From the IMG/VR virus record IMGVR_UViG_3300043403_000051, positions 19,055 through 83,054 of that record: a stretch of DNA of 64,000 nt; one strand, given 5' to 3'. This document shows, piece by piece, positions 1 to 19,119 of the stretch (its first letter is position 1; the number at the start of each line of letters is the position of its first letter). The position numbers and the translations under genes were made by a program. The notes beneath the pieces were generated by a model. It was given only the letters and a program-made list of their open reading frames with translations, searched no databases and was not told where the DNA came from. Source of the stretch: a virus.

Positions 1-14
1 TTAACGGGGCATCT

Positions 15-87
15 GCTTTCTTAGCTCAACGGTGAGAGCAGGACGCTTATATCGTCAAGGTTACAGGTTCGAATCCTGTAGGAAGTA
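15..87 (+). tRNA. tRNA-Ile(UAU)
   Basis: Acceptor GCTTTCT/AGGAAGT, anticodon arm GACG-CTTATAT-CGTC, T arm ACAGG-TTCGAAT-CCTGT; no encoded CCA. Confidence 0.9.
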
Positions 88-92
88 CATAT

Positions 93-166
93 TGAGATGT
101 AGCTCAATTGGTGAGAGCATATGACTGATACTCATAAGGTTGAAGGTTCGACCCCTTTCATCTCAA
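93..166 (+). tRNA. tRNA-Ile(GAU)
   Basis: Acceptor TGAGATG/CATCTCA, anticodon arm TATGA-CTGATAC-TCATA, GGTTCGAC T loop. Confidence 0.92.
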
Positions 167-171
167 CACAC

Positions 172-245
172 GGGGCAATAGTTTAAGCGGCTTAAAACAA
201 TTGATTTGCAATCAGTAGTTCCGATTTCGAGTATCGGTGGCTCCA
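172..245 (+). tRNA. tRNA-Ala(UGC)
   Basis: Anticodon arm ATTGA-TTTGCAA-TCAGT; G3:U70 alanine identity pair in GGGGCAA/TGGCTCC. Confidence 0.9.
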
Positions 246-259
246 CACAAAGAACAACA

Positions 260-739
260 ATGGACAAATATTTTAAAACTGAGACTGGTAAAATAGTTGA
301 TATAATAGAATACACGGCCCAACAAATAAAAGACAATCCCTCTGTTAAGATATACATAGGTGCTGATAGCCAAGTCTACGGCCCTAAGATTAAGTTTATC
401 TTAGCTATTGTATATAGGGTTGGTAATAGGGGTGGGCACTGTATTCATAAGCTTATAAAGACTGAAAGACCACCCAAAGGGATTCCTGATGAAATTCAGG
501 TTAATAACAGGCTTACAGAGGAAGTTTACTTAACTATGGAGCTTGCCCAATATTTTATTGATAATAGTTCTTTTAAACTGGAGGCAGTTGAATTTGACTT
601 TAATCAAGAGGAAAGTTACCTAAGTAACAAGCTAATAAACTTATCAACAGGTTGGGCTAAAGGACTTGGTTTTAAAGCACGTACTAAGCCTGATGAACTG
701 ATAGCTTGCAAGTATGCAGACCATCTCGTAAGATTTTAA
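260..739 (+). CDS. RNase H-like YkuK/DUF458 family protein
   Basis: IYIGADSQ motif, RLxEEV, C-terminal YADHL; start moved to ATG 260 because the longer ORF overlaps tRNA-Ala. Confidence 0.75.
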   Translation: MDKYFKTETGKIVDIIEYTAQQIKDNPSVKIYIGADSQVYGPKIKFILAIVYRVGNRGGHCIHKLIKTERPPKGIPDEIQVNNRLTEEVYLTMELAQYFIDNSSFKLEAVEFDFNQEESYLSNKLINLSTGWAKGLGFKARTKPDELIACKYADHLVRF

Positions 740-741
740 TT

Positions 742-1338
742 ATGATTGTAATATATAAAATAGAAAATCCAAAAGGTAAAGTTTATATTGGTCAAACCAA
801 AAGACTTATTCAAAGAAAGTCTGCTTACAAAAATTTAAGATGTAAGAAACAAAGAAAACTTTATAGTTCTTTAAATAAATATGGTTGGGAAAATCATACA
901 CTTTGTGTTTTACATGAGTTACCTGATGATATAGAGCAAAGAGTAGTAGATGATTATGAAATTTTTTACTATGAACAATTTATTGCTTGTGGATTTGAAA
1001 TGCTAAACCTAAAAACATGCGGAAACGGCGGAGGATTACACTCGGAGGAAACAAAGAGATTGATAGGAAAACAAAGTAAGGAAAGATTTAAAGCTAAATC
1101 TGGAATGAAAATAGCTCAGGTAAATCTTAATTTGGAAATTATTAATTTTTGGGAGAACGGTTATACACTACAACAAGAAAGAAAGTATTACAATATATCA
1201 AGAAAATGCAGAGAATTTCCAAGTATAGCTTATGGATATTTTTGGTTATACGAAAAAGATTTACATAAATTAACGCAAATAGACAAGCTTAAAATAAAAA
1301 AAGACGGGAATGGTGTTTATAGTTATTTCAAAATGTAA
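742..1338 (+). CDS. Free-standing GIY-YIG homing endonuclease with NUMOD3-like motif
   Basis: N-terminal VIYKI...KVYIGQT, conserved R, E and N residues, HSEETKRLIG motif; likely start ATG 742. Confidence 0.85.
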   Translation: MIVIYKIENPKGKVYIGQTKRLIQRKSAYKNLRCKKQRKLYSSLNKYGWENHTLCVLHELPDDIEQRVVDDYEIFYYEQFIACGFEMLNLKTCGNGGGLHSEETKRLIGKQSKERFKAKSGMKIAQVNLNLEIINFWENGYTLQQERKYYNISRKCREFPSIAYGYFWLYEKDLHKLTQIDKLKIKKDGNGVYSYFKM

Positions 1339-1377
1339 TAATCTCTGTAGAGTTTAGTAATTCATTAACATTATTTA

Positions 1378-1409
1378 TTTGGTAGATTAAAAAAAGATTT
1401 ATACCTTTG
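1378..1409 (+). promoter_or_regulatory. Bacteroidota-type promoter of tRNA operon A
   Basis: TTTG (1378-1381), 20 nt spacer, TACCTTTG (1402-1409) matches the -33/-7 consensus. Confidence 0.85.
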
Positions 1410-1415
1410 TATCCC

Positions 1416-1493
1416 ATGAAGAATTTCAACACATATTATAGTCTCTCATTGTTATCCAGCCTAACGGGTCGGGAGCTAAAGGTATGGGTATAA
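1416..1493 (+). CDS. Attenuator leader peptide A, MKNFNTYYSLSLLSSLTGRELKVWV (25 aa)
   Basis: ATG 6 nt after the -7 box; ten consecutive Tyr/Ser/Leu codons at 1434-1463; contains GGGAGCT complementary to the terminator 5' arm. Confidence 0.8.
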   Translation: MKNFNTYYSLSLLSSLTGRELKVWV

Positions 1494-1522
1494 TAAAGAT
1501 AAACTCTTAAATCAAAACATAT

Positions 1523-1550
1523 AAAAAAGCTCCCTATTGGGGGCTTTTTT
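1523..1550 (+). terminator. Attenuator terminator A
   Basis: AAAAAAGCTCCC-TATT-GGGGGCTTTTTT hairpin plus U tract, 7 nt before the first tRNA. Confidence 0.9.
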
Positions 1551-1557
1551 AGTTTAT

Positions 1558-1630
1558 GGCTCTATGACGTAATTGGAAACCGTCTTGGCTTTAGAACCCA
1601 AGTTTCCGAGTTCGAGTCTCGGTAGAGCTA
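1558..1630 (+). tRNA. tRNA-Leu(UAG), short variable loop
   Basis: Acceptor GGCTCTA/TAGAGCT, A73, loop TTTAGAA, T arm CCGAG-TTCGAGT-CTCGG; C31-C39 mismatch. Confidence 0.8.
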
Positions 1631-1633
1631 CAT

Positions 1634-1706
1634 GCCTTTGTGATGAAACGGAATACATGTCAGACTTAAAATCTGAATTTTACGGGTTCGACTCCCGTCA
1701 GAGGTA
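1634..1706 (+). tRNA. tRNA-Leu(UAA), short variable loop
   Basis: TCAGA-CTTAAAA-TCTGA; acceptor GCCTTTG/CAGAGGT; A73. Confidence 0.88.
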
Positions 1707-1711
1707 CATTT

Positions 1712-1796
1712 GGAAGCACGTAAAGTTGGCGTACTTATCCGTCTTGAAAACGGTGAAGAGGTAACACTTGTGCAGGTTCGACCCCTGCTGTTTCCG
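1712..1796 (+). tRNA. tRNA-Ser(UGA)
   Basis: CCGT-CTTGAAA-ACGG, long variable arm, G73. Confidence 0.88.
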
Positions 1797-1799
1797 CAT

Positions 1800-1883
1800 A
1801 GAGAGGTGACTGAATGGTAAGGTACTGGTTTGCTAAACCAGGGTCAGATAAAACTGGAGTGGGTTCGATACCCATCCTCTCTG
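1800..1883 (+). tRNA. tRNA-Ser(GCU)
   Basis: CTGGT-TTGCTAA-ACCAG, long variable arm, acceptor AGAGAGG/CCTCTCT, G73. Confidence 0.92.
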
Positions 1884-1885
1884 CT

Positions 1886-1940
1886 AAAGGGTTCCTGTAT
1901 CAGGCAAAATATAACCCCCGTTGTGGTATAGGAATCGTTT
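1886..1940 (+). ncRNA. Small non-tRNA hairpin RNA inside tRNA operon A
   Basis: GGTTCCTGTATCA (1890-1902) pairs with TGGTATAGGAATC (1924-1936) over 13 bp including G-U pairs. Confidence 0.45.
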
Positions 1941-1944
1941 ATTT

Positions 1945-2029
1945 GAGATAGCTGTCGTGATGGAGGAACGGCACTGGTCTGTAAAACCAGCACTATGAAA
2001 CACAGTAGGTTCGAATCCCACCTATCTCA
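1945..2029 (+). tRNA. tRNA-Tyr(GUA)
   Basis: CTGGT-CTGTAAA-ACCAG, extended variable region, acceptor GAGATAG/CTATCTC. Confidence 0.9.
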
Positions 2030-2055
2030 CATTAACAATTAATTTTAATTATTTA

Positions 2056-2087
2056 TTTGGTAGTTAGATAAAAAGATACTACCTTTG
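2056..2087 (+). promoter_or_regulatory. Bacteroidota-type promoter of tRNA operon B
   Basis: TTTG (2056-2059), 20 nt, TACCTTTG (2080-2087); near copy of the promoter at 1378. Confidence 0.85.
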
Positions 2088-2091
2088 CTTT

Positions 2092-2172
2092 ATGAATGTA
2101 ACACGTACACATACGCAACAGTTTTGGTTCCCTACAAGGGCTGGGCTTGGTATGTGTGATAATAGAGGATAA
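2092..2172 (+). CDS. Attenuator leader peptide B, MNVTRTHTQQFWFPTRAGLGMCDNRG (26 aa)
   Basis: ATG 4 nt after the -7 box; twelve consecutive Thr/Arg/His/Gln/Phe/Trp/Pro codons at 2101-2136; contains CTGGGCTT complementary to the terminator 5' arm. Confidence 0.8.
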   Translation: MNVTRTHTQQFWFPTRAGLGMCDNRG

Positions 2173-2196
2173 ATTCCCCCAAACACTCACTCATTG

Positions 2197-2234
2197 AAAA
2201 GCCCAGGACATAAAATCCTGGGTTTTTTATTTTT
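2197..2234 (+). terminator. Attenuator terminator B
   Basis: AAAAGCCCAGGA-CATAAAA-TCCTGGGTTTTTT directly before tRNA-Pro. Confidence 0.9.
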
Positions 2235-2237
2235 AAT

Positions 2238-2311
2238 CGGGATGTGGACTAATGGCAAGTCACTTACTTTGGGAGTAAGGCATCATGGAGGTTCGAGTCC
2301 TCTCATCCCGA
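2238..2311 (+). tRNA. tRNA-Pro(UGG)
   Basis: CTTAC-TTTGGGA-GTAAG; acceptor CGGGATG/CATCCCG. Confidence 0.92.
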
Positions 2312-2316
2312 CATTT

Positions 2317-2388
2317 GCCTCGTAAGCATATATGGTGATGCAGCGCACTTGTAATGCGCAGAATAGGTTTCGAGTACCTAACTTGGCT
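2317..2388 (+). tRNA. tRNA-Thr(UGU)
   Basis: GCGCA-CTTGTAA-TGCGC; two acceptor-stem mismatches. Confidence 0.88.
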
Positions 2389-2395
2389 CAGTAAT

Positions 2396-2467
2396 GGAGA
2401 TATAGCTCAGTTGGAAGAGCAACGGATTGAAGCCCCGTGAGCACCAGTTCGACTCTGGTTATCTCCA
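2396..2467 (+). tRNA. tRNA-Phe(GAA)
   Basis: Loop TTGAAGC; acceptor GGAGATA/TATCTCC; canonical D arm. Confidence 0.9.
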
Positions 2468-2474
2468 CATATAT

Positions 2475-2545
2475 TCCCATTTGGCGTAACGGAAGCGTAG
2501 GACTCTTTGAAAGTCTTGGAAATTGTTCGATTCAATTAATGGGAG
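2475..2545 (+). tRNA. tRNA-Gln(UUG)
   Basis: GGACT-CTTTGAA-AGTCT; acceptor TCCCATT/AATGGGA (U1-A72), G73. Confidence 0.9.
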
Positions 2546-2550
2546 CACAC

Positions 2551-2622
2551 GGGTTTATTGATGTAATGGAAGCATGGCAGTTTGTGAAGCTGCTCGTATG
2601 GGTTCGAACCCCATATCTACCC
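2551..2622 (+). tRNA. tRNA-His(GUG)
   Basis: GCAGT-TTGTGAA-GCTGC; G-1:C73 present; two acceptor mismatches. Confidence 0.88.
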
Positions 2623-2627
2623 CTTTT

Positions 2628-2699
2628 ATCCTCTTAGCATAATGGAAGTGCAGCAAGCTACGAACTTGCGTTGTGTGAGTTCGAGTCTCATGGAGGATT
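2628..2699 (+). tRNA. tRNA-Arg(ACG)
   Basis: GCAAG-CTACGAA-CTTGC; acceptor ATCCTCT/GGAGGAT. Confidence 0.9.
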
Positions 2700-2711
2700 C
2701 TTTTTATAACT

Positions 2712-2781
2712 GCGTATGCCTAAAGGAGTAGTAAGCGGTCTCCAAAACCGTGATTTATCAGTTCGAGTCTGGTCATGCGTG
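2712..2781 (+). tRNA. tRNA-Trp(CCA) with reduced D arm
   Basis: GCGGT-CTCCAAA-ACCGT; T arm ATCAG-TTCGAGT-CTGGT; acceptor GCGTATG/CATGCGT; only about 70 nt. Confidence 0.75.
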
Positions 2782-2793
2782 CTTAAATAGTAT

Positions 2794-2842
2794 ACCCAAG
2801 TTAATTATTTGTTAAAAGTAATTGATTTGGGTTATTTTTTTT
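2794..2842 (+). terminator. Terminator closing the tRNA region
   Basis: ACCCAAGTTAATTATTT...AAGTAATTGATTTGGGT hairpin followed by a T run. Confidence 0.7.
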
Positions 2843-2871
2843 GGTAGTGTCATAAATTCTTGTTATTTTTG
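2840..2871 (+). promoter_or_regulatory. Bacteroidota-type promoter for the packaging/head operon
   Basis: TTTG, 20 nt, TATTTTTG. Confidence 0.65.
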
Positions 2872-2886
2872 TATAAATTAATTACT

Positions 2887-3240
2887 GTGAGCAACCAAAT
2901 ACCTTTTATAAAGATTTCAAAGAACACAGACTCTAAAATAGAGATGGTTAAAAAGATTGTTTCTATCTATTGTGTGTTGTCTGATATTAAACTTTCTGAA
3001 ACTGATATTATAGTTGTTTCATATTTCATTCTATATGGAATCAATGAAAAAACTAAAAAATTAATTATTGATAGCAAACTCCTTAATAGTGATAGTATCA
3101 AAAATACAATGTCAAAATTAAGAAAAGCAGGTATAATTAAAAAATCAGAATTCAGGAGAAAAGAAGATTATCTAAATGAAAACTTAAACATACCAATTAA
3201 TAAAGTTGTTGGATTAATGATTAAAATAGATAACTCCTAA
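2887..3240 (+). CDS. Hypothetical protein, possible winged-helix DNA-binding protein
   Basis: Basic ORF with SIKNTMSKLRKAGIIKK; GTG start chosen downstream of the promoter. Confidence 0.5.
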   Translation: MSNQIPFIKISKNTDSKIEMVKKIVSIYCVLSDIKLSETDIIVVSYFILYGINEKTKKLIIDSKLLNSDSIKNTMSKLRKAGIIKKSEFRRKEDYLNENLNIPINKVVGLMIKIDNS

Positions 3241-4462: not shown

Positions 4463-6471
4463 TGATTACATCAACAGAATTTCTTAGAAATATAAAACAA
4501 ACGCCCCCCAAAGATAGTATTGACTATGAGCAATTTTGGCAAAATGAATTAGCCAAAGTTAAGTATGGTGTAACAATAAACGGAACATATATACACGGAT
4601 GGCTTTATTGGCATAGCAACCTCTGGAATATTTACATGGATGATTTAGACCCTGTAAATAATGAGGTTGTTCGTGTTTTACAGAATCCTGATTTACGTGA
4701 TAATGAATGGATGATTGCAGAAAATTTAAAGTATGCAGAGGATGAGAAAAAAGGTTTATTTATAATCGGTGCAAGACGACTTGGTAAAACTATGTTTATT
4801 GCATCGTATATTGGTAGGTCTGCCACAATATACAAAGGTAGTGACAATATTATTGTAGGAAATAATAAGGATGACATTAACAACATTACTGCTGCTTGTG
4901 ACTTAGGATTAACCAGCATAAATCCATATTTTTACTCACCAAGAGTAGCGGATGACTGGAAAAAACATGTAAGCTTAGGGGTTAAAGAAAAAAGGACAAA
5001 TGTACGTCATATTTTTTCAAACATATATATTAGGAATACAGAAGGGGGTATTAATACAGAAGTTATTGCGGGTCTTACCCCGAAGGCTCTTGTATTTGAT
5101 GAAATTGGAAAAGGCCCTTTTTTAGAGTCATTTAACGCCGCTAAAAAATCTTTTGAATCTCCTTATGGTTGGAGATGTGTTCCTGTTCTGTTGGGGACGG
5201 GAGGTGCCTTTGATAAGGGTGCTGATGCGGAGAAGGTATTCTATGAACCACAGGTGCATAATTTATTGGCTATTGAGTTGAAAGAGGAGCCTGGTAAAAA
5301 AACATCTGTTTTTATAGGTGGTACTTATAGTTTGGAATTTCCAAAAGTAAAACAATCCCTTTCAGATTTTCTATCTGTAGAAAAAGGAACTATCCTTGAT
5401 ACAATAAATATAGGTGTATCAACCCATGAAGAAAATCGTAGAATAATAGAGGAAAAAAGAAAAATAACTGAAAAAAGTTCAGATATAAAAACTCACCTTA
5501 AAGAGATTATGTATCTACCTCTTACACCAAAAGAGGCATTCCTAAAAGATACAGAAAATGATTTCCCTGTTGAAGCTGCTCAAAAACATTTAGAGTATTT
5601 ACTCTCAAATACGGATTCTACAGGAACTGCTGTATCTTTATATAGAGATATTGATGGGTCAATCAAACACTCGTTTGAGAATACTAAAAAACCAATATTC
5701 GATTATCCCGTTGACAAGAATGTAAGTAAGGATGCTCCTATTATGATATATGAGTTTCCTATAAAAAATCCGCCTTACAATCTTTATATTGCGGGGGCTG
5801 ACCCATATAACCAATCAGAATCATCTTGGTCAGCATCGTTGGGAACAGTCTACATCTATAAAAGATTTTACGACCCCCTTGCAGGAACATATCAAAGAAG
5901 GATTGTTGCCTCTTATGCAGCAAGACCTAAAACAATGAAGGAGTGGCATGAGAATGTAGAACTCTTATTAGAGTTTTATAATGCTACGTGTATGCCTGAA
6001 AATGAAGGTGGTACATTTATTCAATATTTTGACCAGAAAAATAAAGGACATTTACTTGCAGATGGCTACAATATGTTAAAGGAAATTAGCCCTAACACAT
6101 CAATTGTTGGTAGGGTAAAAGGATTACCTGCTACACCTAAAGTAAAAGGTTACTGGATGAATCTACTTGTACAGTACACATTGGAAGACATAGTTGTAGG
6201 CCAAGACCCCGTAACAAAGGAACCAATTAAGAAACTTGGCATATATAGAATATCCGACCCTGCTTTATTAAGAGAAATGATTGCATATGATAAAGATGCA
6301 AACGTTGACCGTATCGTTGCGTTTGGTCATGCTTTAGCCTATGATGCATATCTTGAAAAGTATTTTCCTACAGTTGATGTACGACCAGAAAAAGAACAAA
6401 CTAATAAAAAGAACTTTAAAGTAAGAAGCCCTTTTGCTTTAATTAAGTCAAATCCTTTCCGCCTCAAATAA
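4462..6471 (+). CDS. terL: Terminase large subunit
   Basis: Walker A GARRLGKT, Walker B LVFDEIGK, GTGG, nuclease motifs GADPY and NVDRI. Confidence 0.92.
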   Translation: MITSTEFLRNIKQTPPKDSIDYEQFWQNELAKVKYGVTINGTYIHGWLYWHSNLWNIYMDDLDPVNNEVVRVLQNPDLRDNEWMIAENLKYAEDEKKGLFIIGARRLGKTMFIASYIGRSATIYKGSDNIIVGNNKDDINNITAACDLGLTSINPYFYSPRVADDWKKHVSLGVKEKRTNVRHIFSNIYIRNTEGGINTEVIAGLTPKALVFDEIGKGPFLESFNAAKKSFESPYGWRCVPVLLGTGGAFDKGADAEKVFYEPQVHNLLAIELKEEPGKKTSVFIGGTYSLEFPKVKQSLSDFLSVEKGTILDTINIGVSTHEENRRIIEEKRKITEKSSDIKTHLKEIMYLPLTPKEAFLKDTENDFPVEAAQKHLEYLLSNTDSTGTAVSLYRDIDGSIKHSFENTKKPIFDYPVDKNVSKDAPIMIYEFPIKNPPYNLYIAGADPYNQSESSWSASLGTVYIYKRFYDPLAGTYQRRIVASYAARPKTMKEWHENVELLLEFYNATCMPENEGGTFIQYFDQKNKGHLLADGYNMLKEISPNTSIVGRVKGLPATPKVKGYWMNLLVQYTLEDIVVGQDPVTKEPIKKLGIYRISDPALLREMIAYDKDANVDRIVAFGHALAYDAYLEKYFPTVDVRPEKEQTNKKNFKVRSPFALIKSNPFRLK

Positions 6472-6536
6472 CTTATTTTAGTTACTTAATGAGGAATTTT
6501 AACAAAATTCATTTACTTTTACATAAATTCTAATAA

Positions 6537-9212
6537 ATGGCATTATATAACGCTGCTGATAATTTTAATTCTTTAGTTATGCCCCCACAAATGGTATCTC
6601 TTTCTGATAAGATGAAGGATGATAGATTGTGGGGTAAAAAATGTATGGATACTCTTGAACAAGTTGCTTATACACAAATTCAAGGAAACTACAAACTTGT
6701 TGAAAACTATGAGATGGTAAAAGGTCAGTTCATACCAACACATTATTTTGGAGATGAAGGTTACCAAAGTATGTTAACCCAACTATCTTCTGAATTAGAA
6801 CTACCAAATTATCTTAGACACTATGATATTATATCACCTGTATTAAATACATTATCTGGAGAATTTCAAAAAAGACCAGACTTATTTAGAATTAAGGCAT
6901 GGGATGAGAATAATAAAAATGAGTACTTAACTAAGAAAACAGAACTTATAAAAAACTTTATTTCATCTATCATAGAGAAGCAAGTAAACGATAAATTAAT
7001 TGAGCAAGGTATTGATACCAATCAACAATTTCAGAGCCAAGAAGAGGCTGACAAGTACGAAGAATTCAAGAATACCATACGTACTGCACTCACTCCTCCT
7101 GAAATTGAGGAGTATATGACAACTGAGTTTAGAACAGCCGCAGAAATTTGGGCAGAGTGTGTATTAGATATGGATAAGGAAAGATTTTCCTTAGATGAAA
7201 AAGAGAAAGTGGAGTTCGAAGACATGATTATTTCAGATAGATGTTTTCGACATTTTTATATTACAGGTAAAGGTTACGAACAAGAAACATGGAATCCTGT
7301 AAATGTATTCTACCACAAATCTGATGAAACCATATACATCGAAGATGGTGATTATGTGGGTCGTCAATTCTATGGAACTCCCTCGGATATCATTGATAGA
7401 TATGGATTTAGAATGAAAAAGTCTCAAATTGAGATGCTTGAAAAATTTAAAGAAAACAACGATAGACGTTGGAATGAGACACCTGGCTCAGGGTATGTTT
7501 ACCAAAACTACATGTTCCCTTTTAAAGGCTATCAGGGGTGGGATATTGTAAACAAAGGAATGGGGGCAACTGACCCATCATCACCATATGGTATCCCAAA
7601 AATACCTGATAACTTCTTTGATAGCTTTGGTTCAAATATGTATTCAGAGAAACTCGGTATGTTTCTTATTACAGAGGGATATTGGATGTCACAAAAAAAA
7701 ATAGGCTTATACACATACTTTGATGAAGAACTTGGGATAGTAACAAGCACTTTAGTGGATGAAAATGTTATTCTCCCTGATGATATTATAGTTATAGATG
7801 AAATTGAAGAAGGTAGTGAGGAAGAAAATATTAATACAATTGCTTGGACATATGTAAATGAAGTTTGGCAAGGTGTTAAAATAAATGTAAGAAACGCTGA
7901 TGTGACAGATGAGCATAATACGGACGCAATCTATTTAGACTTACAACCGTTGTCTTTTCAATTTAAAGGTGATATAAATCCCTATAATGCTAAACTACCC
8001 GTGTGTGGACAAATATTTAGTGTAAGGAATTCTAAATCTGCATCTCTTGTTGATTTAATGAAACCTTACCAGATTGGTTTTAATGTAGCAATGAATCAAG
8101 TCTATCAAATGATGGAGAAAGAAATTGGTGCATTTATGGTAATGGATGTGAATATGTTTCCTGATAGTAAAGATTGGGGTGGAGAAGATGCTTGGGAGAA
8201 ATGGATGCTTATTGCCAAAAACTTAGGTATGCTTCCCGCAGATACATCACCCGCAAATACAAAAGGGGCAAGTGCCGCAGCAGGTGGTCAATTTCCAAAA
8301 ATTCTTAATCTTGACTTAGCTGCTCAATTTACATCAAGAATAAATTTAGCACAAATCTTTAAAAAGTTTGCTTTAGAGCAAATAGGATTTAACGATTATC
8401 GTCTTGGTAATTTTAATCAAAGTTCTACAGCTACGGGTATTGAAGAAGGGCAACAACGTTCTTTTGCACAAACAGAGAGTTACTTTACAAATTTTTATAA
8501 TTATTTAAAAAGATGTAAAAGAATGAATTTAGATATTGCACAGTTTGTTCAAGCTAAAGATGCTGATATAACTTTTAATTATGTTAAATCAGATTTATCT
8601 ACGGCATATATAAAAATAGCAGGAACCGATTTAATGGGTTCTGACCTACATGTATTTGTTACAAACTCTCAAGAGCATCTAAGACAATTAGAGGCAAGCA
8701 GACAACTTGGTTTACAGAACACAACACAAATGACAGAAGACAACCTTCTTGAACTTATTACATCAAACTCTTTATCATCTATTAAAAAGAAAATTAAAGA
8801 TGGTGTTAAGAAAAGACAAGAGAAAGAGCAACAAGCTTTAGATATGCAGCAACAACAAACAGAAGCAATGAAGGAAGTTGAGACAATGAAACAACAAAAA
8901 GAAGATGAACGTCTTGAAAAGAAACTTGCTTCAGCAGAGTATATTGCACAAATTCAACTTGAAGCTGCAAATGGTGGGGATATCCCTGATTCCATAAATA
9001 TGCAAAATCAGTTAAAGAACCAAGAAATGACAAATAGACAATCTTCTGAATCAACTAAAAATCAGATTGCTAATCAACAACGTATTGATAATAGGCAACT
9101 CAAAGAAAAAGAACTTGCTTTAAAAAATAAGAAAATTGACACAGATTTAGAGATTCAAAATAAAGAACTTGAAAGTGTAAAAATATTAAAAGATAAGACA
9201 GATAAAAAATAA
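6537..9212 (+). CDS. Portal protein (crAss-like)
   Basis: 891 aa after terL; HYDIISP..L.GE and SLVDLMKPYQ..FN motifs; coiled-coil C terminus. Confidence 0.85.
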   Translation: MALYNAADNFNSLVMPPQMVSLSDKMKDDRLWGKKCMDTLEQVAYTQIQGNYKLVENYEMVKGQFIPTHYFGDEGYQSMLTQLSSELELPNYLRHYDIISPVLNTLSGEFQKRPDLFRIKAWDENNKNEYLTKKTELIKNFISSIIEKQVNDKLIEQGIDTNQQFQSQEEADKYEEFKNTIRTALTPPEIEEYMTTEFRTAAEIWAECVLDMDKERFSLDEKEKVEFEDMIISDRCFRHFYITGKGYEQETWNPVNVFYHKSDETIYIEDGDYVGRQFYGTPSDIIDRYGFRMKKSQIEMLEKFKENNDRRWNETPGSGYVYQNYMFPFKGYQGWDIVNKGMGATDPSSPYGIPKIPDNFFDSFGSNMYSEKLGMFLITEGYWMSQKKIGLYTYFDEELGIVTSTLVDENVILPDDIIVIDEIEEGSEEENINTIAWTYVNEVWQGVKINVRNADVTDEHNTDAIYLDLQPLSFQFKGDINPYNAKLPVCGQIFSVRNSKSASLVDLMKPYQIGFNVAMNQVYQMMEKEIGAFMVMDVNMFPDSKDWGGEDAWEKWMLIAKNLGMLPADTSPANTKGASAAAGGQFPKILNLDLAAQFTSRINLAQIFKKFALEQIGFNDYRLGNFNQSSTATGIEEGQQRSFAQTESYFTNFYNYLKRCKRMNLDIAQFVQAKDADITFNYVKSDLSTAYIKIAGTDLMGSDLHVFVTNSQEHLRQLEASRQLGLQNTTQMTEDNLLELITSNSLSSIKKKIKDGVKKRQEKEQQALDMQQQQTEAMKEVETMKQQKEDERLEKKLASAEYIAQIQLEAANGGDIPDSINMQNQLKNQEMTNRQSSESTKNQIANQQRIDNRQLKEKELALKNKKIDTDLEIQNKELESVKILKDKTDKK

Positions 9213-10505: not shown

Positions 10506-12182
10506 ATGACAGATTTCAAAGTACCAAGTTTGAATCAACTGAATAACGGAGTAGTTATTGGTCAATCTCGTTTTGACCCCCGTAAGTTTACAGATTTAAA
10601 CTTCCTTTACACAAACTATTCCAAAGATGCCTTTACAGTATATAAGGGTCTTCTTGCATTGTGGAATCAAAGGAGCATAATTAATACTCCATTGATTAAT
10701 AGCACATTGCTAAAAAACAACGTAATGTATGTTCCTAATCAGGAAGGTAAGTTCCGTTTTGATGTTCCTTATGAATTGGGACTTCCTTATATTGTAGAAA
10801 ATCTTGAGGTTGATACAGACAAGCCTGGTCTTGATGGTCAAAAATTCAAAATTAAACTTAATGAAGATTGTTATACTAACACTGACCGTTTGATTGCAGA
10901 CTATCGTGATGGTATTGAACTTTATATTACGGAAGATGAAATCATTCAAGAAGCTGATGGATTTGTATATACAGTAGAAATTGTAAGTAACAATCGTAGA
11001 GGTACTTTCTATCCTAAAGAATGGTTAGAGCCTGGTACACAATACATGAAACTTTCTAATATCAATGGTGAATATGATACACAAAAATCATCTATTTCAT
11101 CAGAAGGTCTTCGTACTGGTATTATGAATCTTGAAATGGAACTTGGTGGTGGTCACCGTTCCGTAACTCACTGGATTACTGGTTATGCTGATATGGCTCG
11201 TGTTGATGAAAACAAACACCCTAACTTAGCGTTTATTAACCAACGTCTTGAGAGCATGGGTTCAACAATGCTTTACTACAATACTAATCCTAAAACAGGA
11301 GCACCTCTTGCTAAAACTACTACATGGCAACCAACTGTGGAAGTATTGCTTCGTGCAGAGATGGAGATGATGACTGAAAAGGACTTAATGTGGTCTAAAG
11401 GTGGTTTTATTACAGGTTCTGGTAGAAGACAAACTCGTGTAGGCCCTGGTCTTTATGAGCAACTTCGTAATGGTAACCGTTATCAATATAATAAGATTAG
11501 TCTTACCCTTATTGAGCGTGCTGTAGCCAATCTATTCTCTAAGTCAGGTATTCCTCTTGACCAACGTCGTACAAAGATTGTAACTGGTACAGGTGGTCTT
11601 ATTCAAGTTTCGAAAGAAATTGAAGAAAAATACAAACAAGTAGTTCCATTTATGACTCAGGTTTCTGATGTTCCTGGTGGAGTACTTTATGGTGACCAAA
11701 TGAATCTTGGTTATAAGTATCGTTTTACAAAATTCTTCTCTCCAATTGCGGGTGAAATCGAATTCGAAATCAACCCTGCTCTTGATAACCTTAGTTCTAA
11801 TCGTGTACAAGATAACTTCAACGGAGAATATCCTATTGAGTCTTTCACATATATGATTCTTGACGTTACTGATAGTCGTTCTACAAATGCTGCGGCAAGA
11901 GTAAATACAACTAAGTATCGTGTACAAGACGGATTTAATTCAGACGCTAATATCGTTTTAGTTAAACCTGAAAACTACGGTGATTTATATTGGGGTTATA
12001 TTGCAGGTACTCACCACCCACTTGGGCCTTCTTACATGAAGGGAATGATGTCTGCTAACCAGTATGATGGTTATCAAATTTGGATGAAAGCGTTTGCAAA
12101 TCTTTGGGTTAAAGACGTAACACGTACACTACTTATTGAGAAAGCTCGTCCGTTCTATAATGGATTATTTGCTCAACAATAA
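10506..12182 (+). CDS. Major capsid protein
   Basis: 558 aa in crAss-like position; RVGPGLYEQL and VTGTGG motifs; biased codon use (CGT, GGT) suggests high expression. Confidence 0.85.
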   Translation: MTDFKVPSLNQLNNGVVIGQSRFDPRKFTDLNFLYTNYSKDAFTVYKGLLALWNQRSIINTPLINSTLLKNNVMYVPNQEGKFRFDVPYELGLPYIVENLEVDTDKPGLDGQKFKIKLNEDCYTNTDRLIADYRDGIELYITEDEIIQEADGFVYTVEIVSNNRRGTFYPKEWLEPGTQYMKLSNINGEYDTQKSSISSEGLRTGIMNLEMELGGGHRSVTHWITGYADMARVDENKHPNLAFINQRLESMGSTMLYYNTNPKTGAPLAKTTTWQPTVEVLLRAEMEMMTEKDLMWSKGGFITGSGRRQTRVGPGLYEQLRNGNRYQYNKISLTLIERAVANLFSKSGIPLDQRRTKIVTGTGGLIQVSKEIEEKYKQVVPFMTQVSDVPGGVLYGDQMNLGYKYRFTKFFSPIAGEIEFEINPALDNLSSNRVQDNFNGEYPIESFTYMILDVTDSRSTNAAARVNTTKYRVQDGFNSDANIVLVKPENYGDLYWGYIAGTHHPLGPSYMKGMMSANQYDGYQIWMKAFANLWVKDVTRTLLIEKARPFYNGLFAQQ

Positions 12183-17218: not shown

Positions 17219-19119
17219 TGTCAACTACAAACTGTGGATGTCCTGAAACTCCATGTACTGCTACTATTGACCCTTGCACAAACAAAGGTTGTCCAATTCC
17301 GCCAACTGATGCGGAATGTATATATTTTAATTTATTTTCAGATAGTGGATTACCATGTATAGGTGTTACAGGTGGGACAAATTTAAAAACTATTTTAGAG
17401 AAAATAGATGTAAAATTATGTAGTATAAATCCATATGATTTTAGTGCTTATGATTTAAAATGTTTAGATGATACTACTACAATATTAACATTTAAAAATT
17501 TTGCAGAAGCTGTTGCAACACAATTGTGTCAGGCTAAAACAAATATTGCAACTTTAACAAATACATTATCCGCTCTATCAACAACAGTTGACGTAAATAA
17601 TGTTCCTGTTATTGCAGATAATTGTTCTATAGGGATATTACCAAATGACACAGTAAAACAAGTTCTACAAAAACTTGTAAATAAAATTTGTACGTTAACT
17701 CCAACAGATGTCAGTCCATCAATAGGTGTATCAAGTACGAATAGTATTTCATTTTTAGCGTCAGGTACAAAAAATCATAATATATCAGCAAATGTTAGAG
17801 TATCTCCAAATATTGGTAATACTTTACAAACATTAGTAAATGGATTATATGTTGCCACACCTGCGTCAGTAGCTGCACAAACATTAAGTTATAATACACT
17901 ATCAAGAGAATTAGCTATATCGGGTGGTAATTCGATAACACTTCCACCAGACTTAGATAATCAAACACTTTCGTTAAATTTATTAACAAATATATTAACT
18001 ATAAGCGGTGGTAACTCTGTTGATTTTACTCCATTATTTTCTGCAATTTCTATAACAGAAACTGATATAACAGCAAACGATAGTCAAACAATTAATTTTA
18101 CTACATCGGGAACAGCAGACCATACCTTAACAGGAAGTGTAATTGTTGACAATACTCAACCCAACGCTCTTATTGCAAATAGTAATGGTTTATATGTAGC
18201 CCCCGTTTCAGTTCCACTGCAAACAGGACAAAATGGTATTACAACAAATCTTGGATTAATTGAACTTGGCGGAAGCCTTATAAAAGATACGGTATTATCA
18301 GAAGTTACAGGAACTCATGAATTTGCGCTTGAGGCAAAAAATATTTGGTTTGGTAATGATTATCTTACATATCTAAATAATTTTGATATTACTCAATTTG
18401 GGGTTGTGTCAACAAAAAATGTTACAGATTTTTTAACATATAGTAATATGTTAAGCTCATTTGACTTAACTATAGACGGTGGATTTTCAACAGGTAAGGT
18501 ATTTACAGCAAGTAATAATGGATTAGTTTTAAATTTAGATAGTTCATCAACTGTTCCCAACTCTACAGTTGTTGGTGCAAATGTCAGTACAGTTAATCTT
18601 AAAACAAATAACGAAAATTTAACATTTTCTCAAGCTACAGATTTAGTTGGTACATCAGTAAGAGCTTTATATACATCAAGATTATCTTTTCAAATTTTAG
18701 AGGAAACAACAACATCTTCTACAATCAGTCATGCAGCAACCCTTGCTATTGGCTCTCCTTATTATGTACCTGGTGGTGTAGATTTTGCTACAATAACAAA
18801 TTACTATGGAATTTTATTAAATAGGTCTAATTCTTTTAATTTAAGTCTTATTACTAATAGATGGGGTATTTATCAAGAAGGAGAAAGTGATAATAACTAT
18901 TTTGCAGGATTTACAAGTTTTGGAAATACAACTACGCCAACCTCTCAAATAGATATTGCTACAACAAATGGTTATCAAGCCCTTCGTTTAAGAAATGATT
19001 ATACTCCAAGCGCAACAGGTGATACTAACGGAGAAATTGGTAATATTACATGGGATGATAGCTTTATTTATATAAAGACATCCGTTGGTTGGAAAAAAGC
19101 AACATTAGCAGCAATATAA
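17218..19119 (+). CDS. Tail fibre protein
   Basis: Cys-rich N terminus, repeated QTLS...L.ISGGNS, C-terminal GEIGNITWDDSFIYIKT..WKK. Confidence 0.75.
   Translation: MSTTNCGCPETPCTATIDPCTNKGCPIPPTDAECIYFNLFSDSGLPCIGVTGGTNLKTILEKIDVKLCSINPYDFSAYDLKCLDDTTTILTFKNFAEAVATQLCQAKTNIATLTNTLSALSTTVDVNNVPVIADNCSIGILPNDTVKQVLQKLVNKICTLTPTDVSPSIGVSSTNSISFLASGTKNHNISANVRVSPNIGNTLQTLVNGLYVATPASVAAQTLSYNTLSRELAISGGNSITLPPDLDNQTLSLNLLTNILTISGGNSVDFTPLFSAISITETDITANDSQTINFTTSGTADHTLTGSVIVDNTQPNALIANSNGLYVAPVSVPLQTGQNGITTNLGLIELGGSLIKDTVLSEVTGTHEFALEAKNIWFGNDYLTYLNNFDITQFGVVSTKNVTDFLTYSNMLSSFDLTIDGGFSTGKVFTASNNGLVLNLDSSSTVPNSTVVGANVSTVNLKTNNENLTFSQATDLVGTSVRALYTSRLSFQILEETTTSSTISHAATLAIGSPYYVPGGVDFATITNYYGILLNRSNSFNLSLITNRWGIYQEGESDNNYFAGFTSFGNTTTPTSQIDIATTNGYQALRLRNDYTPSATGDTNGEIGNITWDDSFIYIKTSVGWKKATLAAI

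What the first reader, a model, noticed from the sequence alone, without database searches (positions are those of the whole stretch)
1378..2781. Leader-peptide attenuators that sense the very tRNAs they control: on-demand phage tRNA supply
Seen: two cassettes share one architecture: promoter, 25-26 codon leader ORF, intrinsic terminator, tRNA array. In each, a block of consecutive leader codons uses only amino acids whose tRNAs lie downstream, and every downstream tRNA is covered (A: 10 codons, 5 tRNAs; B: 12 codons, 7 tRNAs). The two amino-acid sets do not overlap, and the leaders differ in sequence. Each leader also carries a perfect 7-8 nt complement to its own terminator 5' arm just after the codon block. 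Established: this is the logic of trp/his/thr/ilv attenuators and of E. coli pheST. Inference: stalling on any depleted, uncharged or cleaved tRNA gives read-through into replacement tRNA genes, a multi-input OR gate with negative feedback. It could counter host anticodon nucleases (PrrC, RloC, PARIS AriB, VapC types). I know of no description of translation-coupled attenuation of phage tRNA arrays, but could not search the literature.
Basis: partly seen in the sequence, partly recalled or inferred. Interest (0 to 1): 0.97.

Follow-up and report, generated by a model that had tools for sequence, protein, structure and literature searches.

The report
Leader-peptide attenuators gating phage tRNA arrays
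In this freshwater crAss-like phage each block of tRNA genes sits behind a tiny test gene, spelled in the amino acids those tRNAs carry and wired to a switchable transcription stop, so the phage probably makes a tRNA set only when ribosomes read its codons slowly.

Summary
Cassettes A (window 1378-2030) and B (2056-2782) each hold a Bacteroidota-type promoter, a 25- or 26-codon ORF, an intrinsic terminator and a tRNA array. Each codon block is the longest run of its amino-acid set in all six frames of the 83-kb genome. A third cassette lies 1.4 kb upstream of the window, and the three tRNA sets together cover all 20 amino acids.

I compiled 32 such cassettes from 15 sources: this genome, Leptolyngbya phage Lbo-JY46, 12 metagenome contigs and the unrelated Tenacibaculum phage Gundel_1.
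- Leader composition tracks array content.
- Where tRNA-Cys sits in another array, Cys codons sit in that array's leader (19 of 19 leaders).
- Arg codons are AGA before tRNA-Arg(tct) and CGT/CGC/CGA before tRNA-Arg(acg).
- A complement to the terminator's 5' arm lies at codons 16-24 in 32 of 32 leaders, in different sequences.

The best reading is trp/ilv-type ribosome-mediated attenuation that gives feedback control of tRNA supply. This rests on sequence only; I found no RNA data. A role against anticodon nucleases is untested. Ten literature searches found no description. This scan has reported the same architecture before on other DNA; those are AI notes, not independent evidence.

The parts
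15..246 (+). Last three tRNAs (Ile-tat, Ile-gat, Ala-tgc) of unit C. Its promoter, leader (genome C1:17565-17669) and terminator (17692-17725) lie upstream of the window.
   Evidence: ARAGORN; leader C
260..739 (+). DUF458/YkuK RNase H-like gene (PF04308). It follows the unit C tRNAs with no promoter box in between, and it is embedded in the tRNA region of all relatives.
742..1338 (+). GIY-YIG-like (homing endonuclease-like) ORF between unit C and cassette A.
   Evidence: 22.2 bits, just under the Pfam cut-off of 22.6
1378..1409 (+). Promoter A: TTTG (-33) and TACCTTTG (-7), Bacteroidota type. The leader ATG follows 6 nt later.
1416..1493 (+). Leader ORF A, 25 codons plus TAA.
1434..1463 (+). 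Sensor block A, YYSLSLLSSL: two codons for each of the five downstream tRNAs.
1470..1478 (+). Region 2 of A, the 5' half of the antiterminator (CGGGAGCTA). It pairs with the terminator's 5' arm.
1524..1550 (+). Intrinsic terminator A (hairpin plus T run), 8 nt before tRNA-Leu.
1558..2030 (+). tRNA array A: Leu-tag, Leu-taa, Ser-tga (1712-1797, weak), Ser-gct, Tyr-gta.
2056..2087 (+). Promoter B: TTTG and TACCTTTG. The leader ATG follows 4 nt later.
2092..2172 (+). Leader ORF B, 26 codons plus TAA.
2101..2136 (+). Sensor block B, TRTHTQQFWFPT. The next codon is AGG, which is not read by the array's Arg-acg.
2140..2149 (+). Region 2 of B (GCTGGGCTTG). It pairs with the terminator's 5' arm.
2195..2232 (+). 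Intrinsic terminator B (14-pair hairpin plus T run), 6 nt before tRNA-Pro.
2238..2782 (+). tRNA array B: Pro-tgg, Thr-tgt, Phe-gaa, Gln-ttg, His-gtg, Arg-acg, Trp-cca.
2794..2840 (+). Terminator-like hairpin closing unit B. The next promoter box starts at window 2840.

Best explanation
These are ribosome-mediated (leader-peptide) transcription attenuators, and the genes they regulate are the phage's own tRNA arrays.

Proposed mechanism:
1. Host-type RNA polymerase starts at a Bacteroidota-type promoter. The transcript begins at or a few bases before the leader AUG, so the mRNA is leaderless or nearly so in A and B.
2. A ribosome translates the leader while the polymerase moves through a 50-60-nt A/U-rich spacer towards the terminator.
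3. If all codons of the sensor block are decoded quickly, the ribosome runs over region 2 (codons about 17-23). Region 2 is either covered, or refolds with upstream leader sequence after the ribosome has passed. The terminator hairpin then forms and transcription stops 6-13 nt before the first tRNA.
4. If the ribosome waits at any block codon for a charged cognate tRNA, region 2 stays free and pairs with the terminator's 5' arm. The polymerase reads through and the whole array is made.

The sensed tRNAs are the products, so each unit is a multi-input, OR-type negative-feedback loop on supply of its tRNA set.

Shown: the anatomy, its statistics, its conservation and its covariation.
Inferred: translation of the leaders, stalling, conditional read-through, the transcription start site and which polymerase acts.
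For: 1. Anatomy in three units of this genome. A both-strand scan of the genome for this signature finds only these three, each 9-13 nt before a tRNA.

2. Codon blocks. Blocks A and B are the longest runs of their sets in all six frames. Block C, VIDNIRNAEGCKKA, is the only one of 166,026 six-frame 14-codon windows that lies wholly within its 11-residue set and has at least 10 different residues.

3. Frame specificity over 32 leaders. The in-frame run averages 11.3 codons. In the other two frames it averages 2.4, with a maximum of 6.

4. Match to own array. The 32 cassettes come from 15 sources. In loci with two or more cassettes, the run under a leader's own tRNA set (mean 12.0) beats the run under the neighbouring arrays' sets (mean 2.25) in 27 of 27 leaders. 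The order of residues is scrambled between relatives while the composition is kept.

5. Cys. Cys occurs in the first 18 codons exactly when tRNA-Cys is in that array, in 19 of 19 B- and C-type leaders.

6. Arg codons in the blocks.
- Before Arg-tct: AGA in 10 of 10.
- Before Arg-acg: CGT, CGC or CGA in 8 of 9.
- CGN makes up 27% of Arg codons in the phage's long ORFs.
This points to sensing of isoacceptors, not of the free amino acid.

7. Wobble. Of 361 block codons, 310 are readable by the array's tRNAs under strict wobble. The figure is 357 if U34 reads all four codons of a family box.

8. Antiterminator.
- The best duplex between leader and terminator 5' arm lies at codons 16-24 in 32 of 32 cassettes, with p <= 0.05 in 23 of 32.
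- The paired sequences differ between cassettes. One pair shows a T-A to C-G compensatory change in 3 of 6 aligned C-type leaders.
- With a ribosome masked at block codons 6-12, region 2 pairs with the 5' arm in the minimum-energy fold in 32 of 32.

9. Close strains in three freshwater runs show 0 differences in leader A codons 1-16 and 0 in leader B. They show 13 single-letter differences in 1471-1526, the tail of leader A, the spacer and the terminator flank.

10. An independent lineage, Tenacibaculum phage Gundel_1, has two cassettes of the same design with other sequences and other tRNA sets.

11. Leader B of relative L005 gives a sub-threshold match to Rfam Trp_leader: 33.9 bits against a gathering score of 41.
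Against: - There are no expression data of any kind.
- Leader A and leader B on their own do not fold better than shuffles (z = -0.47 and -0.64). Only leader C does (z = -4.36). A protector (1:2) hairpin is therefore not established for the two cassettes of the finding. Without a ribosome, region 2 pairs with the 5' arm in the truncated transcript in 22 of 32 cassettes.
- The stop codons lie 5-7 codons past region 2. A ribosome waiting at the stop would not cover region 2 as in trpL, so termination must depend on ribosome transit timing or on refolding.
- 51 of 361 block codons (TCC, CTC, CCC, ACC, GGY and others) are not read by the array's tRNAs under strict wobble.
- Exceptions to the match:
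  - Lbo-JY46 leader A keeps two Tyr and two AGT codons, but no Tyr or Ser-gct tRNA was detected in that genome.
  - Gundel_1 leader 2 has a His codon without a detected tRNA-His.
  - The tRNA-like sequence in front of Gundel_1 array 1 is not supported by ARAGORN or Rfam as tRNA-Tyr.
  - In L004 the positional homologue of Gln-ttg is called Lys-ttt by ARAGORN.
- Seven tRNAs in relatives were added by eye or from Rfam hits after I had seen the leaders. The tool-only table gives shorter runs for L004 B (3), L004 C (6) and L011 B (9).
- The relatives are related to each other. The Cys shift may be a single event, and counts of leaders are not counts of independent events.
- Two Bacteroides phages with tRNA arrays, cr111_1 and DAC19, showed no such cassette by eye.
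Confidence: 0.8

Rival explanations
1. The cassettes are real attenuators, but the signal that matters is amino-acid starvation or general translation stress rather than shortage of particular tRNAs. On this view they tie tRNA output to the host's nutritional state.
For: Stalling reports the level of charged tRNA, so the sequence alone cannot separate low tRNA from low charging. The nearest published case, the Anabaena trn operon, is induced by general impairment of translation (passages read).
Against: - Arg codons split by isoacceptor between two leaders: AGA in 10 of 10 against CGN in 8 of 9. Arginine starvation would hit both alike.
- Leader A gives two codons to each of its five tRNAs, covering both Ser boxes and both Leu boxes.
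- Making more tRNA does not relieve amino-acid starvation.
Confidence: 0.1
2. The terminators are constitutive insulators or processing signals before the arrays. The short ORFs are either not translated or encode small peptides with a function of their own, and the match in composition is incidental.
For: There is no evidence of translation. Leaders A and B start 4-6 nt after the -7 box, so initiation would have to be leaderless. The folds of leaders A and B alone are no better than shuffles.
Against: - The genome-wide rarity of the blocks.
- Frame specificity.
- Composition is kept while residue order is scrambled across relatives.
- Indels between relatives are in frame.
- The Cys and Arg covariation.
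- The complement to the terminator arm sits at a fixed position in 32 of 32 cassettes.
Confidence: 0.05
3. The element works without ribosomes: the leader RNA pairs directly with tRNA anticodons, in the manner of a T-box, to control the terminator.
For: The block is a string of codons complementary to the anticodons of the downstream tRNAs, and it sits upstream of a terminator/antiterminator switch.
Against: - No T-box or other riboswitch hit in the region even at E <= 1.
- An ATG-to-stop frame is kept in 32 of 32 leaders.
- Substitutions respect amino-acid sets, including changes across codon boxes such as Leu to Ser and Thr to Gln.
- No conserved structured platform: z is about -0.5 for leaders A and B.
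Confidence: 0.03

Closest known systems
Multivalent leader-peptide attenuators of enterobacterial amino-acid operons (ilvGMEDA, thr; also trp, his, leu, pheA). Recalled from textbooks, not read here.
   Same: A short translated leader with a block of regulatory codons, an intrinsic terminator, and an alternative pairing that blocks the terminator when the ribosome stalls. Several amino acids are sensed by one leader.
   Different: - The regulated genes are tRNAs, not biosynthetic enzymes, so the sensed molecule is itself the product.
- Up to 11 amino acids are sensed in one 14-16-codon block.
- The start is leaderless or nearly so.
- The stop codon lies well past region 2.
- A 1:2 protector hairpin is supported only in unit C.
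- There is no Rfam leader-family match above threshold.
E. coli pheST attenuator (recalled).
   Same: Leader-peptide attenuation of a gene of the translation apparatus that serves the sensed codons.
   Different: It regulates a synthetase, senses a single amino acid and is a cellular gene.
Leaderless polycysteine short ORFs acting as Cys-responsive attenuators in mycobacteria (bioRxiv 10.1101/834739; I saw only the search listing and the start of the abstract).
   Same: A leaderless short ORF whose codon content senses the supply of one amino acid and controls downstream genes.
   Different: It senses Cys only and its downstream genes are protein-coding. I did not read its mechanism.
T-box riboswitches (recalled).
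   Same: A terminator/antiterminator switch that reads the state of a specific tRNA through codon-anticodon pairing.
   Different: A T-box binds uncharged tRNA directly without a ribosome, has a conserved stem I and T-box sequence, and regulates synthetases and amino-acid genes. No T-box hit was found here.
Anabaena sp. PCC 7120 trn operon (PMC8421152, passages read; PMC10272220, passages read).
   Same: An accessory tRNA array that is silent by default and is induced when translation is impaired.
   Different: Its control is at the promoter, through direct repeats and the TrcR repressor. The words 'attenuat', 'leader' and 'terminator' occur 0 times in PMC8421152. It is cellular, not viral.

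Membership tests
Leader-peptide (ribosome-mediated) transcription attenuator | A short ORF with start and stop codons between the promoter and the regulated genes | tested here: met
   Leader A is 1416-1493, leader B is 2092-2172 and leader C is genome 17565-17669. The frame is kept in 32 of 32 cassettes.
Leader-peptide (ribosome-mediated) transcription attenuator | A block of regulatory codons for the amino acids or tRNAs tied to the regulated genes | tested here: met
   Blocks A and B are the longest runs of their sets in the genome, and block C is unique among 166,026 windows. The own-set run beats the other arrays' sets in 27 of 27 leaders.
Leader-peptide (ribosome-mediated) transcription attenuator | An intrinsic terminator between the leader and the regulated genes | tested here: met
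   Hairpin plus T run 6-13 nt before the first tRNA. z = -3.05 and -3.12.
Leader-peptide (ribosome-mediated) transcription attenuator | An antiterminator pairing that excludes the terminator and is freed by a ribosome stalled in the block | tested here: met
   The duplex lies at codons 16-24 in 32 of 32 cassettes, with p <= 0.05 in 23 of 32. It forms in the minimum-energy fold with a ribosome masked at codons 6-12 in 32 of 32. One compensatory pair is seen.
Leader-peptide (ribosome-mediated) transcription attenuator | An anti-antiterminator (1:2) pairing that gives termination when the block is not occupied | tested here: inconclusive
   Full-length minimum-energy folds show such stems. The leader-alone z-scores are -0.47 (A), -0.64 (B) and -4.36 (C). 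Upstream pairing of region 2 occurs in 10 of 32 truncated transcripts.
Leader-peptide (ribosome-mediated) transcription attenuator | The leader is translated, and read-through responds to the supply of charged tRNA | not testable with these tools
   No RNA run is listed for this DNA. This needs Term-seq, Ribo-seq or reporter assays.
Rfam leader families (Trp_leader, Phe_leader, His, Thr, Leu) | A covariance-model score at or above the gathering threshold | tested here: not met
   In the window the only hits are Phe_leader at 25.0 and 24.6 bits against a threshold of 55. In relative L005, Trp_leader scores 33.9 against 41.
T-box riboswitch | A match to the T-box covariance model (stem I, specifier loop, T-box sequence) | tested here: not met
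   No T-box hit in window 1-3000 at E <= 1.

The most novel reading that the evidence does not exclude
Phage tRNA arrays are self-regulating modules. Each carries a leaderless multi-codon sensor ORF that measures, through ribosome speed, the cell's working pool of exactly the isoacceptors the array encodes, and it opens a terminator when any of them runs short. The design recurs with unrelated sequences in separate phage lineages: this crAss-like family and Gundel_1 here, a similar layout in phiCbK, and more according to this scan's earlier unchecked notes. On this reading it lets a phage detect and replace host tRNAs lost to depletion, codon mismatch or cleavage by defence nucleases.
Probability: 0.5. 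Interest if true: 0.93.

Novelty: new variant of a known kind. Interest (0 to 1): 0.88.

Why it matters
How phages control their tRNA genes, and why they carry them, is largely open. A sensor that turns a tRNA array on only when its own codons are read slowly would be the first attenuation system in which tRNA is both signal and product.

It would explain why the arrays are split into fixed sets. It would give a direct readout of which host tRNAs become limiting during infection.

It also makes testable predictions:
- Each cassette should respond only to loss of its own tRNAs.
- Each cassette should be shut off by its own array supplied in trans.

The parts are compact, about 140 nt, and could serve as tRNA- or codon-specific biosensors.

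Cultured systems exist for testing. Lbo-JY46 carries the same three cassettes. Tenacibaculum phage Gundel_1 and Caulobacter phage phiCbK have similar layouts.

Tried and rejected
RNA evidence: the look-up of sequencing runs listed no RNA holder for window 1300-2900. All 20 rows are DNA metagenomes, mostly freshwater and leaf litter, so expression could not be examined.

More relatives:
- The search for related loci in viral contigs found no relative of the DUF458 protein in three tries: the single protein, a 2-sequence alignment and a 30-sequence alignment.
- An exact 23-nt leader A pattern found nothing in viral contigs.
- The 'phages' collection holds one close relative, Lbo-JY46.

tRNA repair genes, as a test of the anticodon-nuclease idea: RtcB (PF01139) and RNA_ligase (PF09414) gave no match in G000. 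The record is 57% complete by CheckV, so this says nothing.

Other Bacteroidota phages: by eye I saw no promoter-ORF-terminator cassette with a matching block before the tRNA arrays of crAss-like cr111_1 or Bacteroides phage DAC19.

Isoacceptor-level tracking beyond Arg: extra tRNAs in some relatives (Lys-ctt, Gln-ctg, Leu-caa, Leu-aag, Gly-gcc) are not clearly mirrored by extra codons in the leaders (read by eye).

Literature: ten searches found no paper on leader-peptide attenuation of tRNA genes and no paper on Lbo-JY46. Supplementary files were not consulted. Subscription journals are mostly outside the library.

Rows dropped before the counts:
- L002 is a copy of part of G000.
- L012 is identical to L011 over the shared part. 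No A-type leader was found in L011 or L012 upstream of the HNH ORF that precedes Leu-tag.
- L009, L013 and L018 are fragments of 2491, 4547 and 1194 nt with no cassette start.
- The C-type leaders of L007 and L008 are cut off by the contig ends.


Full report
WHAT IS THERE

The window is bases 19055-83054 of an 83,054-bp virus record. CheckV rates the record 57% complete. It has 32% G+C and a crAss-type major capsid gene at window 10506-12179 (Pfam Crass_capsid, E = 5e-33). The Bacteroidota promoter pattern TTTG-N17-23-TAnnTTTG occurs 14 times on the + strand, against 1.9 on average (maximum 6) in 50 shuffles. Near-identical DNA occurs in freshwater metagenomes. I infer a crAss-like phage of a Bacteroidota host. 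The host is not shown.

THE TWO CASSETTES OF THE FINDING

Cassette A:
- promoter box 1378-1409;
- ORF 1416-1493, MKNFNTYYSLSLLSSLTGRELKVWV;
- terminator 1524-1549 plus a T run;
- tRNAs Leu-tag, Leu-taa, Ser-tga, Ser-gct and Tyr-gta, spanning 1558-2030.

Cassette B:
- promoter box 2056-2087;
- ORF 2092-2172, MNVTRTHTQQFWFPTRAGLGMCDNRG;
- terminator 2195-2229 plus a T run;
- tRNAs Pro, Thr, Phe, Gln, His, Arg-acg and Trp, spanning 2238-2782.

Three of the tRNAs are weak. Ser-tga appears only at a relaxed ARAGORN threshold, and in Rfam only as a sub-threshold hit to the tRNA-Sec model. Tyr and Trp score 23.8 and 25.0 bits, below Rfam's tRNA cut-off of 29.

The ten block codons of A give exactly two codons to each of its five tRNAs: TAT TAT, AGT AGC, CTC CTA, TCA TCC and TTG TTA.

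IS IT MORE THAN CHANCE?

In all six frames of the genome the A block is the longest {L,S,Y} run (10 codons; the next is 8). The B block is the longest {P,T,F,Q,H,R,W} run (13 codons; the next is 9). These sets make up 19% and 25% of the residues in the phage's long ORFs. A signature scan of both strands for promoter box, 12-45-codon ATG ORF and terminator returns three cassettes and nothing else.

A THIRD CASSETTE OUTSIDE THE WINDOW

At genome 17515-17725 there is a promoter box, the ORF MNSRTVIDNIRNAEGCKKALVGNVCFYDGGCGCN and a terminator. They are followed by these tRNAs: Lys, Cys, Val and Arg-tct; then a DPBB-domain ORF; then Asn, Met, Gly, Glu, Asp, Ile-tat, Ile-gat and Ala. The last three tRNAs are window 15-246.

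Codons 6-19 use only amino acids of that set and cover 10 of its 11 members. Met, the eleventh, is the start codon. This is the only such window among 166,026 six-frame 14-codon windows.

The three sets do not overlap and together cover all 20 amino acids.

RELATIVES

One close relative is in the phage collection: Leptolyngbya phage Lbo-JY46, about 78% identical across the region and syntenic, with all three cassettes.

The DUF458/YkuK gene that sits inside the tRNA region (PF04308) led to 16 metagenome loci.

I compiled 32 cassettes from 15 sources: 11 of type A, 9 of type B, 10 of type C and 2 from Gundel_1. The rows I dropped are listed under Tried and rejected.

- Composition. The residue order of the block differs between relatives (YYSLSLLSSL, SLYYSSLSLLS, LSYSSLYYLS, LYLLSSLSYSL) while its composition is kept. 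The in-frame run averages 11.3 codons, against 2.4 in the other two frames.
- Own set against neighbours. Under a leader's own array the run averages 12.0. Under the other arrays of the same locus it averages 2.25. The own-set run is larger in 27 of 27 leaders.
- Caveat on curation. Seven tRNAs in relatives were added by eye or from Rfam hits after I had seen the leaders. The tool-only table is. No by-eye additions were made for G000's three cassettes; only Ser-tga needed ARAGORN's relaxed 90% threshold.

COVARIATION

In G000, L001, L005 and L006, tRNA-Cys lies in the C-type array. There the C-type block contains Cys and the B-type block does not.

In L004, L010, L011, L014 and L016, tRNA-Cys lies in the B-type array. 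There the B-type leader reads ...CPQCP..., and the C-type leader has no Cys at all.

The rule holds in 19 of 19 leaders. This may reflect a single relocation event.

Arg codons inside the blocks:
- AGA in 10 of 10 cases before Arg-tct.
- CGT (5), CGC (2) and CGA (1), plus one AGG at the edge of a block, before Arg-acg.
- CGN makes up only 27% of Arg codons in the phage's long ORFs.

Of 361 block codons, 310 are readable by the array's tRNAs under strict wobble. The figure is 357 if U34 reads whole family boxes.

THE SWITCH

The strongest duplex between each leader and its terminator's 5' arm lies at codons 16-24 in 32 of 32 cassettes, and p <= 0.05 in 23 of 32. The values are:

| Cassette | Energy (kcal/mol) | p |
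|---|---|---|
| G000 A | -13.3 | 0.002 |
| G000 B | -15.1 | 0.007 |
| G000 C | -16.7 | 0.005 |

Fisher's combined p for these three is 1e-5.

The paired sequences differ from cassette to cassette. In six aligned C-type leaders one pair changes from T-A to C-G in three of them.

I then folded each transcript cut just after the 5' arm.
- With a ribosome masked at block codons 6-12, region 2 pairs with the 5' arm in 32 of 32.
- With the ribosome at codon 16, the pairing is lost or partly lost in most.

The full-length transcripts fold into a leader hairpin plus the terminator.

The weak point is the protector hairpin. Leaders A and B alone fold no better than shuffles (z = -0.47 and -0.64). Only leader C does (z = -4.36).

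The ATG lies 4-7 nt after the -7 box in the 5 B-type and 4 of the 6 A-type leaders for which the scan measured it, and 17-31 nt after it in the 8 C-type leaders measured. If I recall the position of the -7 box correctly, this implies leaderless or nearly leaderless mRNAs for A and B.

POPULATION DATA

Contigs of a close strain in three freshwater runs differ from the window at 19 letters in 1601. None of the differences lies in leader A codons 1-16 or in leader B. Thirteen single-letter differences lie in 1471-1526, the tail of leader A, the spacer and the terminator flank. They include R19Q (in region 2), V23I and W24C. The block is conserved while the peptide's tail is free to vary.

OTHER LINEAGES

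Tenacibaculum phage Gundel_1 (Pachyviridae) has two cassettes with unrelated sequences.
- The first is MKTKLYSYSCFSSWFKNRAG plus a terminator. It precedes a tRNA-like sequence that no tool supports, then Trp (weak), Phe, Ser-tga, Cys (Rfam 42 bits; I read the anticodon by eye) and Ser-gct.
- The second is MKTNNLHIQQNNLPVFLEGFLYM plus a terminator. It precedes an HNH ORF, then Pro, Gln, a CAT-anticodon tRNA, Asn and Leu.
- Their antiterminator complements are 8 and 11 nt long, with p = 0.005 and 0.001.

In Caulobacter phage phiCbK the depositors annotated rho-independent terminators directly before three tRNA blocks. The ORF before Phe-Val-Ile-Ile-Val-Gln-Gln contains QFVRQIQVVRNIR. This is suggestive and I did not analyse it further.

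Two Bacteroides phages showed no such cassette by eye, so the design is not universal.

EXCEPTIONS

- Lbo-JY46 leader A keeps YY and AGT codons. Its array ends after Ser-tga, where a promoter and an ORF replace Ser-gct and Tyr. The only tRNA outside the cluster in that genome is a Leu.
- Gundel_1 leader 2 has an unmatched His codon.
- In L004, ARAGORN calls the tRNA in the Gln position Lys-ttt.

WHAT IS KNOWN

The logic is that of the trp, his, thr and ilv attenuators and of pheST (recalled). No Rfam leader family or T-box matches above threshold.

Ten full-text searches found no report of leader-peptide attenuation of tRNA genes. The nearest case in print is the stress-induced Anabaena trn operon. 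It is controlled at its promoter by direct repeats and the TrcR repressor. The words 'attenuat', 'leader' and 'terminator' do not occur in PMC8421152 (passages only).

This scan's own notes describe the same idea on many other DNAs and on this genome. They are unchecked AI notes. I used them as leads only, and they do not change the scores.

VERDICT

The attenuator reading is strongly supported by sequence statistics, conservation and covariation. Function is not demonstrated, and the anti-defence purpose is open. I rate it a new variant of a known kind of control, of high interest.

Noticed in passing
G000 C1:18073-18405 (upstream of the window); window 260-739; window 742-1338: Three protein genes lie inside or directly after unit C with no promoter box between them and leader C: a DPBB/RlpA-like ORF (Pfam 1.4e-13), the DUF458/YkuK RNase H-like gene and a GIY-YIG-like ORF. 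They may therefore be co-regulated by the attenuator. DUF458 is embedded in the tRNA region in all 16 metagenome relatives.
   Followed up: partly
L011:4900-5050, L014:4050-4470, L011:3330-3570, L012:8700-8940, L007:1-340, L003:5502-6008: HNH-type homing-endonuclease ORFs are repeatedly inserted between an attenuator's terminator and its first tRNA, or between tRNAs. This places them downstream of the switch.
   Followed up: no
tail of leader C (genome 17643-17666); L010:3904-3951; L017:1413-1451; L019:282-347: A Gly/Cys-rich motif, DGGCGC, recurs. It forms the C-terminal tail of leader C in G000 and Lbo-JY46, and it appears as separate mini-ORFs just upstream of other leaders in three relatives. 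Its meaning is unknown.
   Followed up: no
L010:8056-8128; L016:5439-5510: Two relatives carry a tRNA with anticodon CTA, which is amber-suppressor-like (ARAGORN labels it 'Pyl'; Rfam tRNA 67.4 bits in L010). This hints at TAG recoding in those phages. No such tRNA is seen in this window.
   Followed up: no
L001 (PP438436.1): The only cultured close relative is recorded as infecting the cyanobacterium Leptolyngbya boryana. Yet it carries the same Bacteroidota-type TTTG/TAnnTTTG promoter boxes before its leaders, and the window's phage has a crAss-type capsid. The host assignment may deserve a check.
   Followed up: no
G000 C1:10254-10328 (- strand): A second tRNA-Arg(tct) stands alone on the opposite strand, far from the arrays, with no leader cassette in front of it.
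   Followed up: partly
G000 C1 about 5290-8536 (- strand): An earlier first-reader note (e1-6129270) describes a DUF2828/TROVE-like gene followed by four structured RNA repeats. I saw only the 558-aa ORF at 6860-8536 and did not check the claim.
   Followed up: no
window 1434-1463 and homologous blocks: For the family boxes served by a U34 tRNA, most leaders pair an NNA or NNG codon with the NNC codon (TCA+TCC, CTA+CTC, ACA+ACC, CCA+CCC). The NNC codon may be the most concentration-sensitive reading of these tRNAs.
   Followed up: partly
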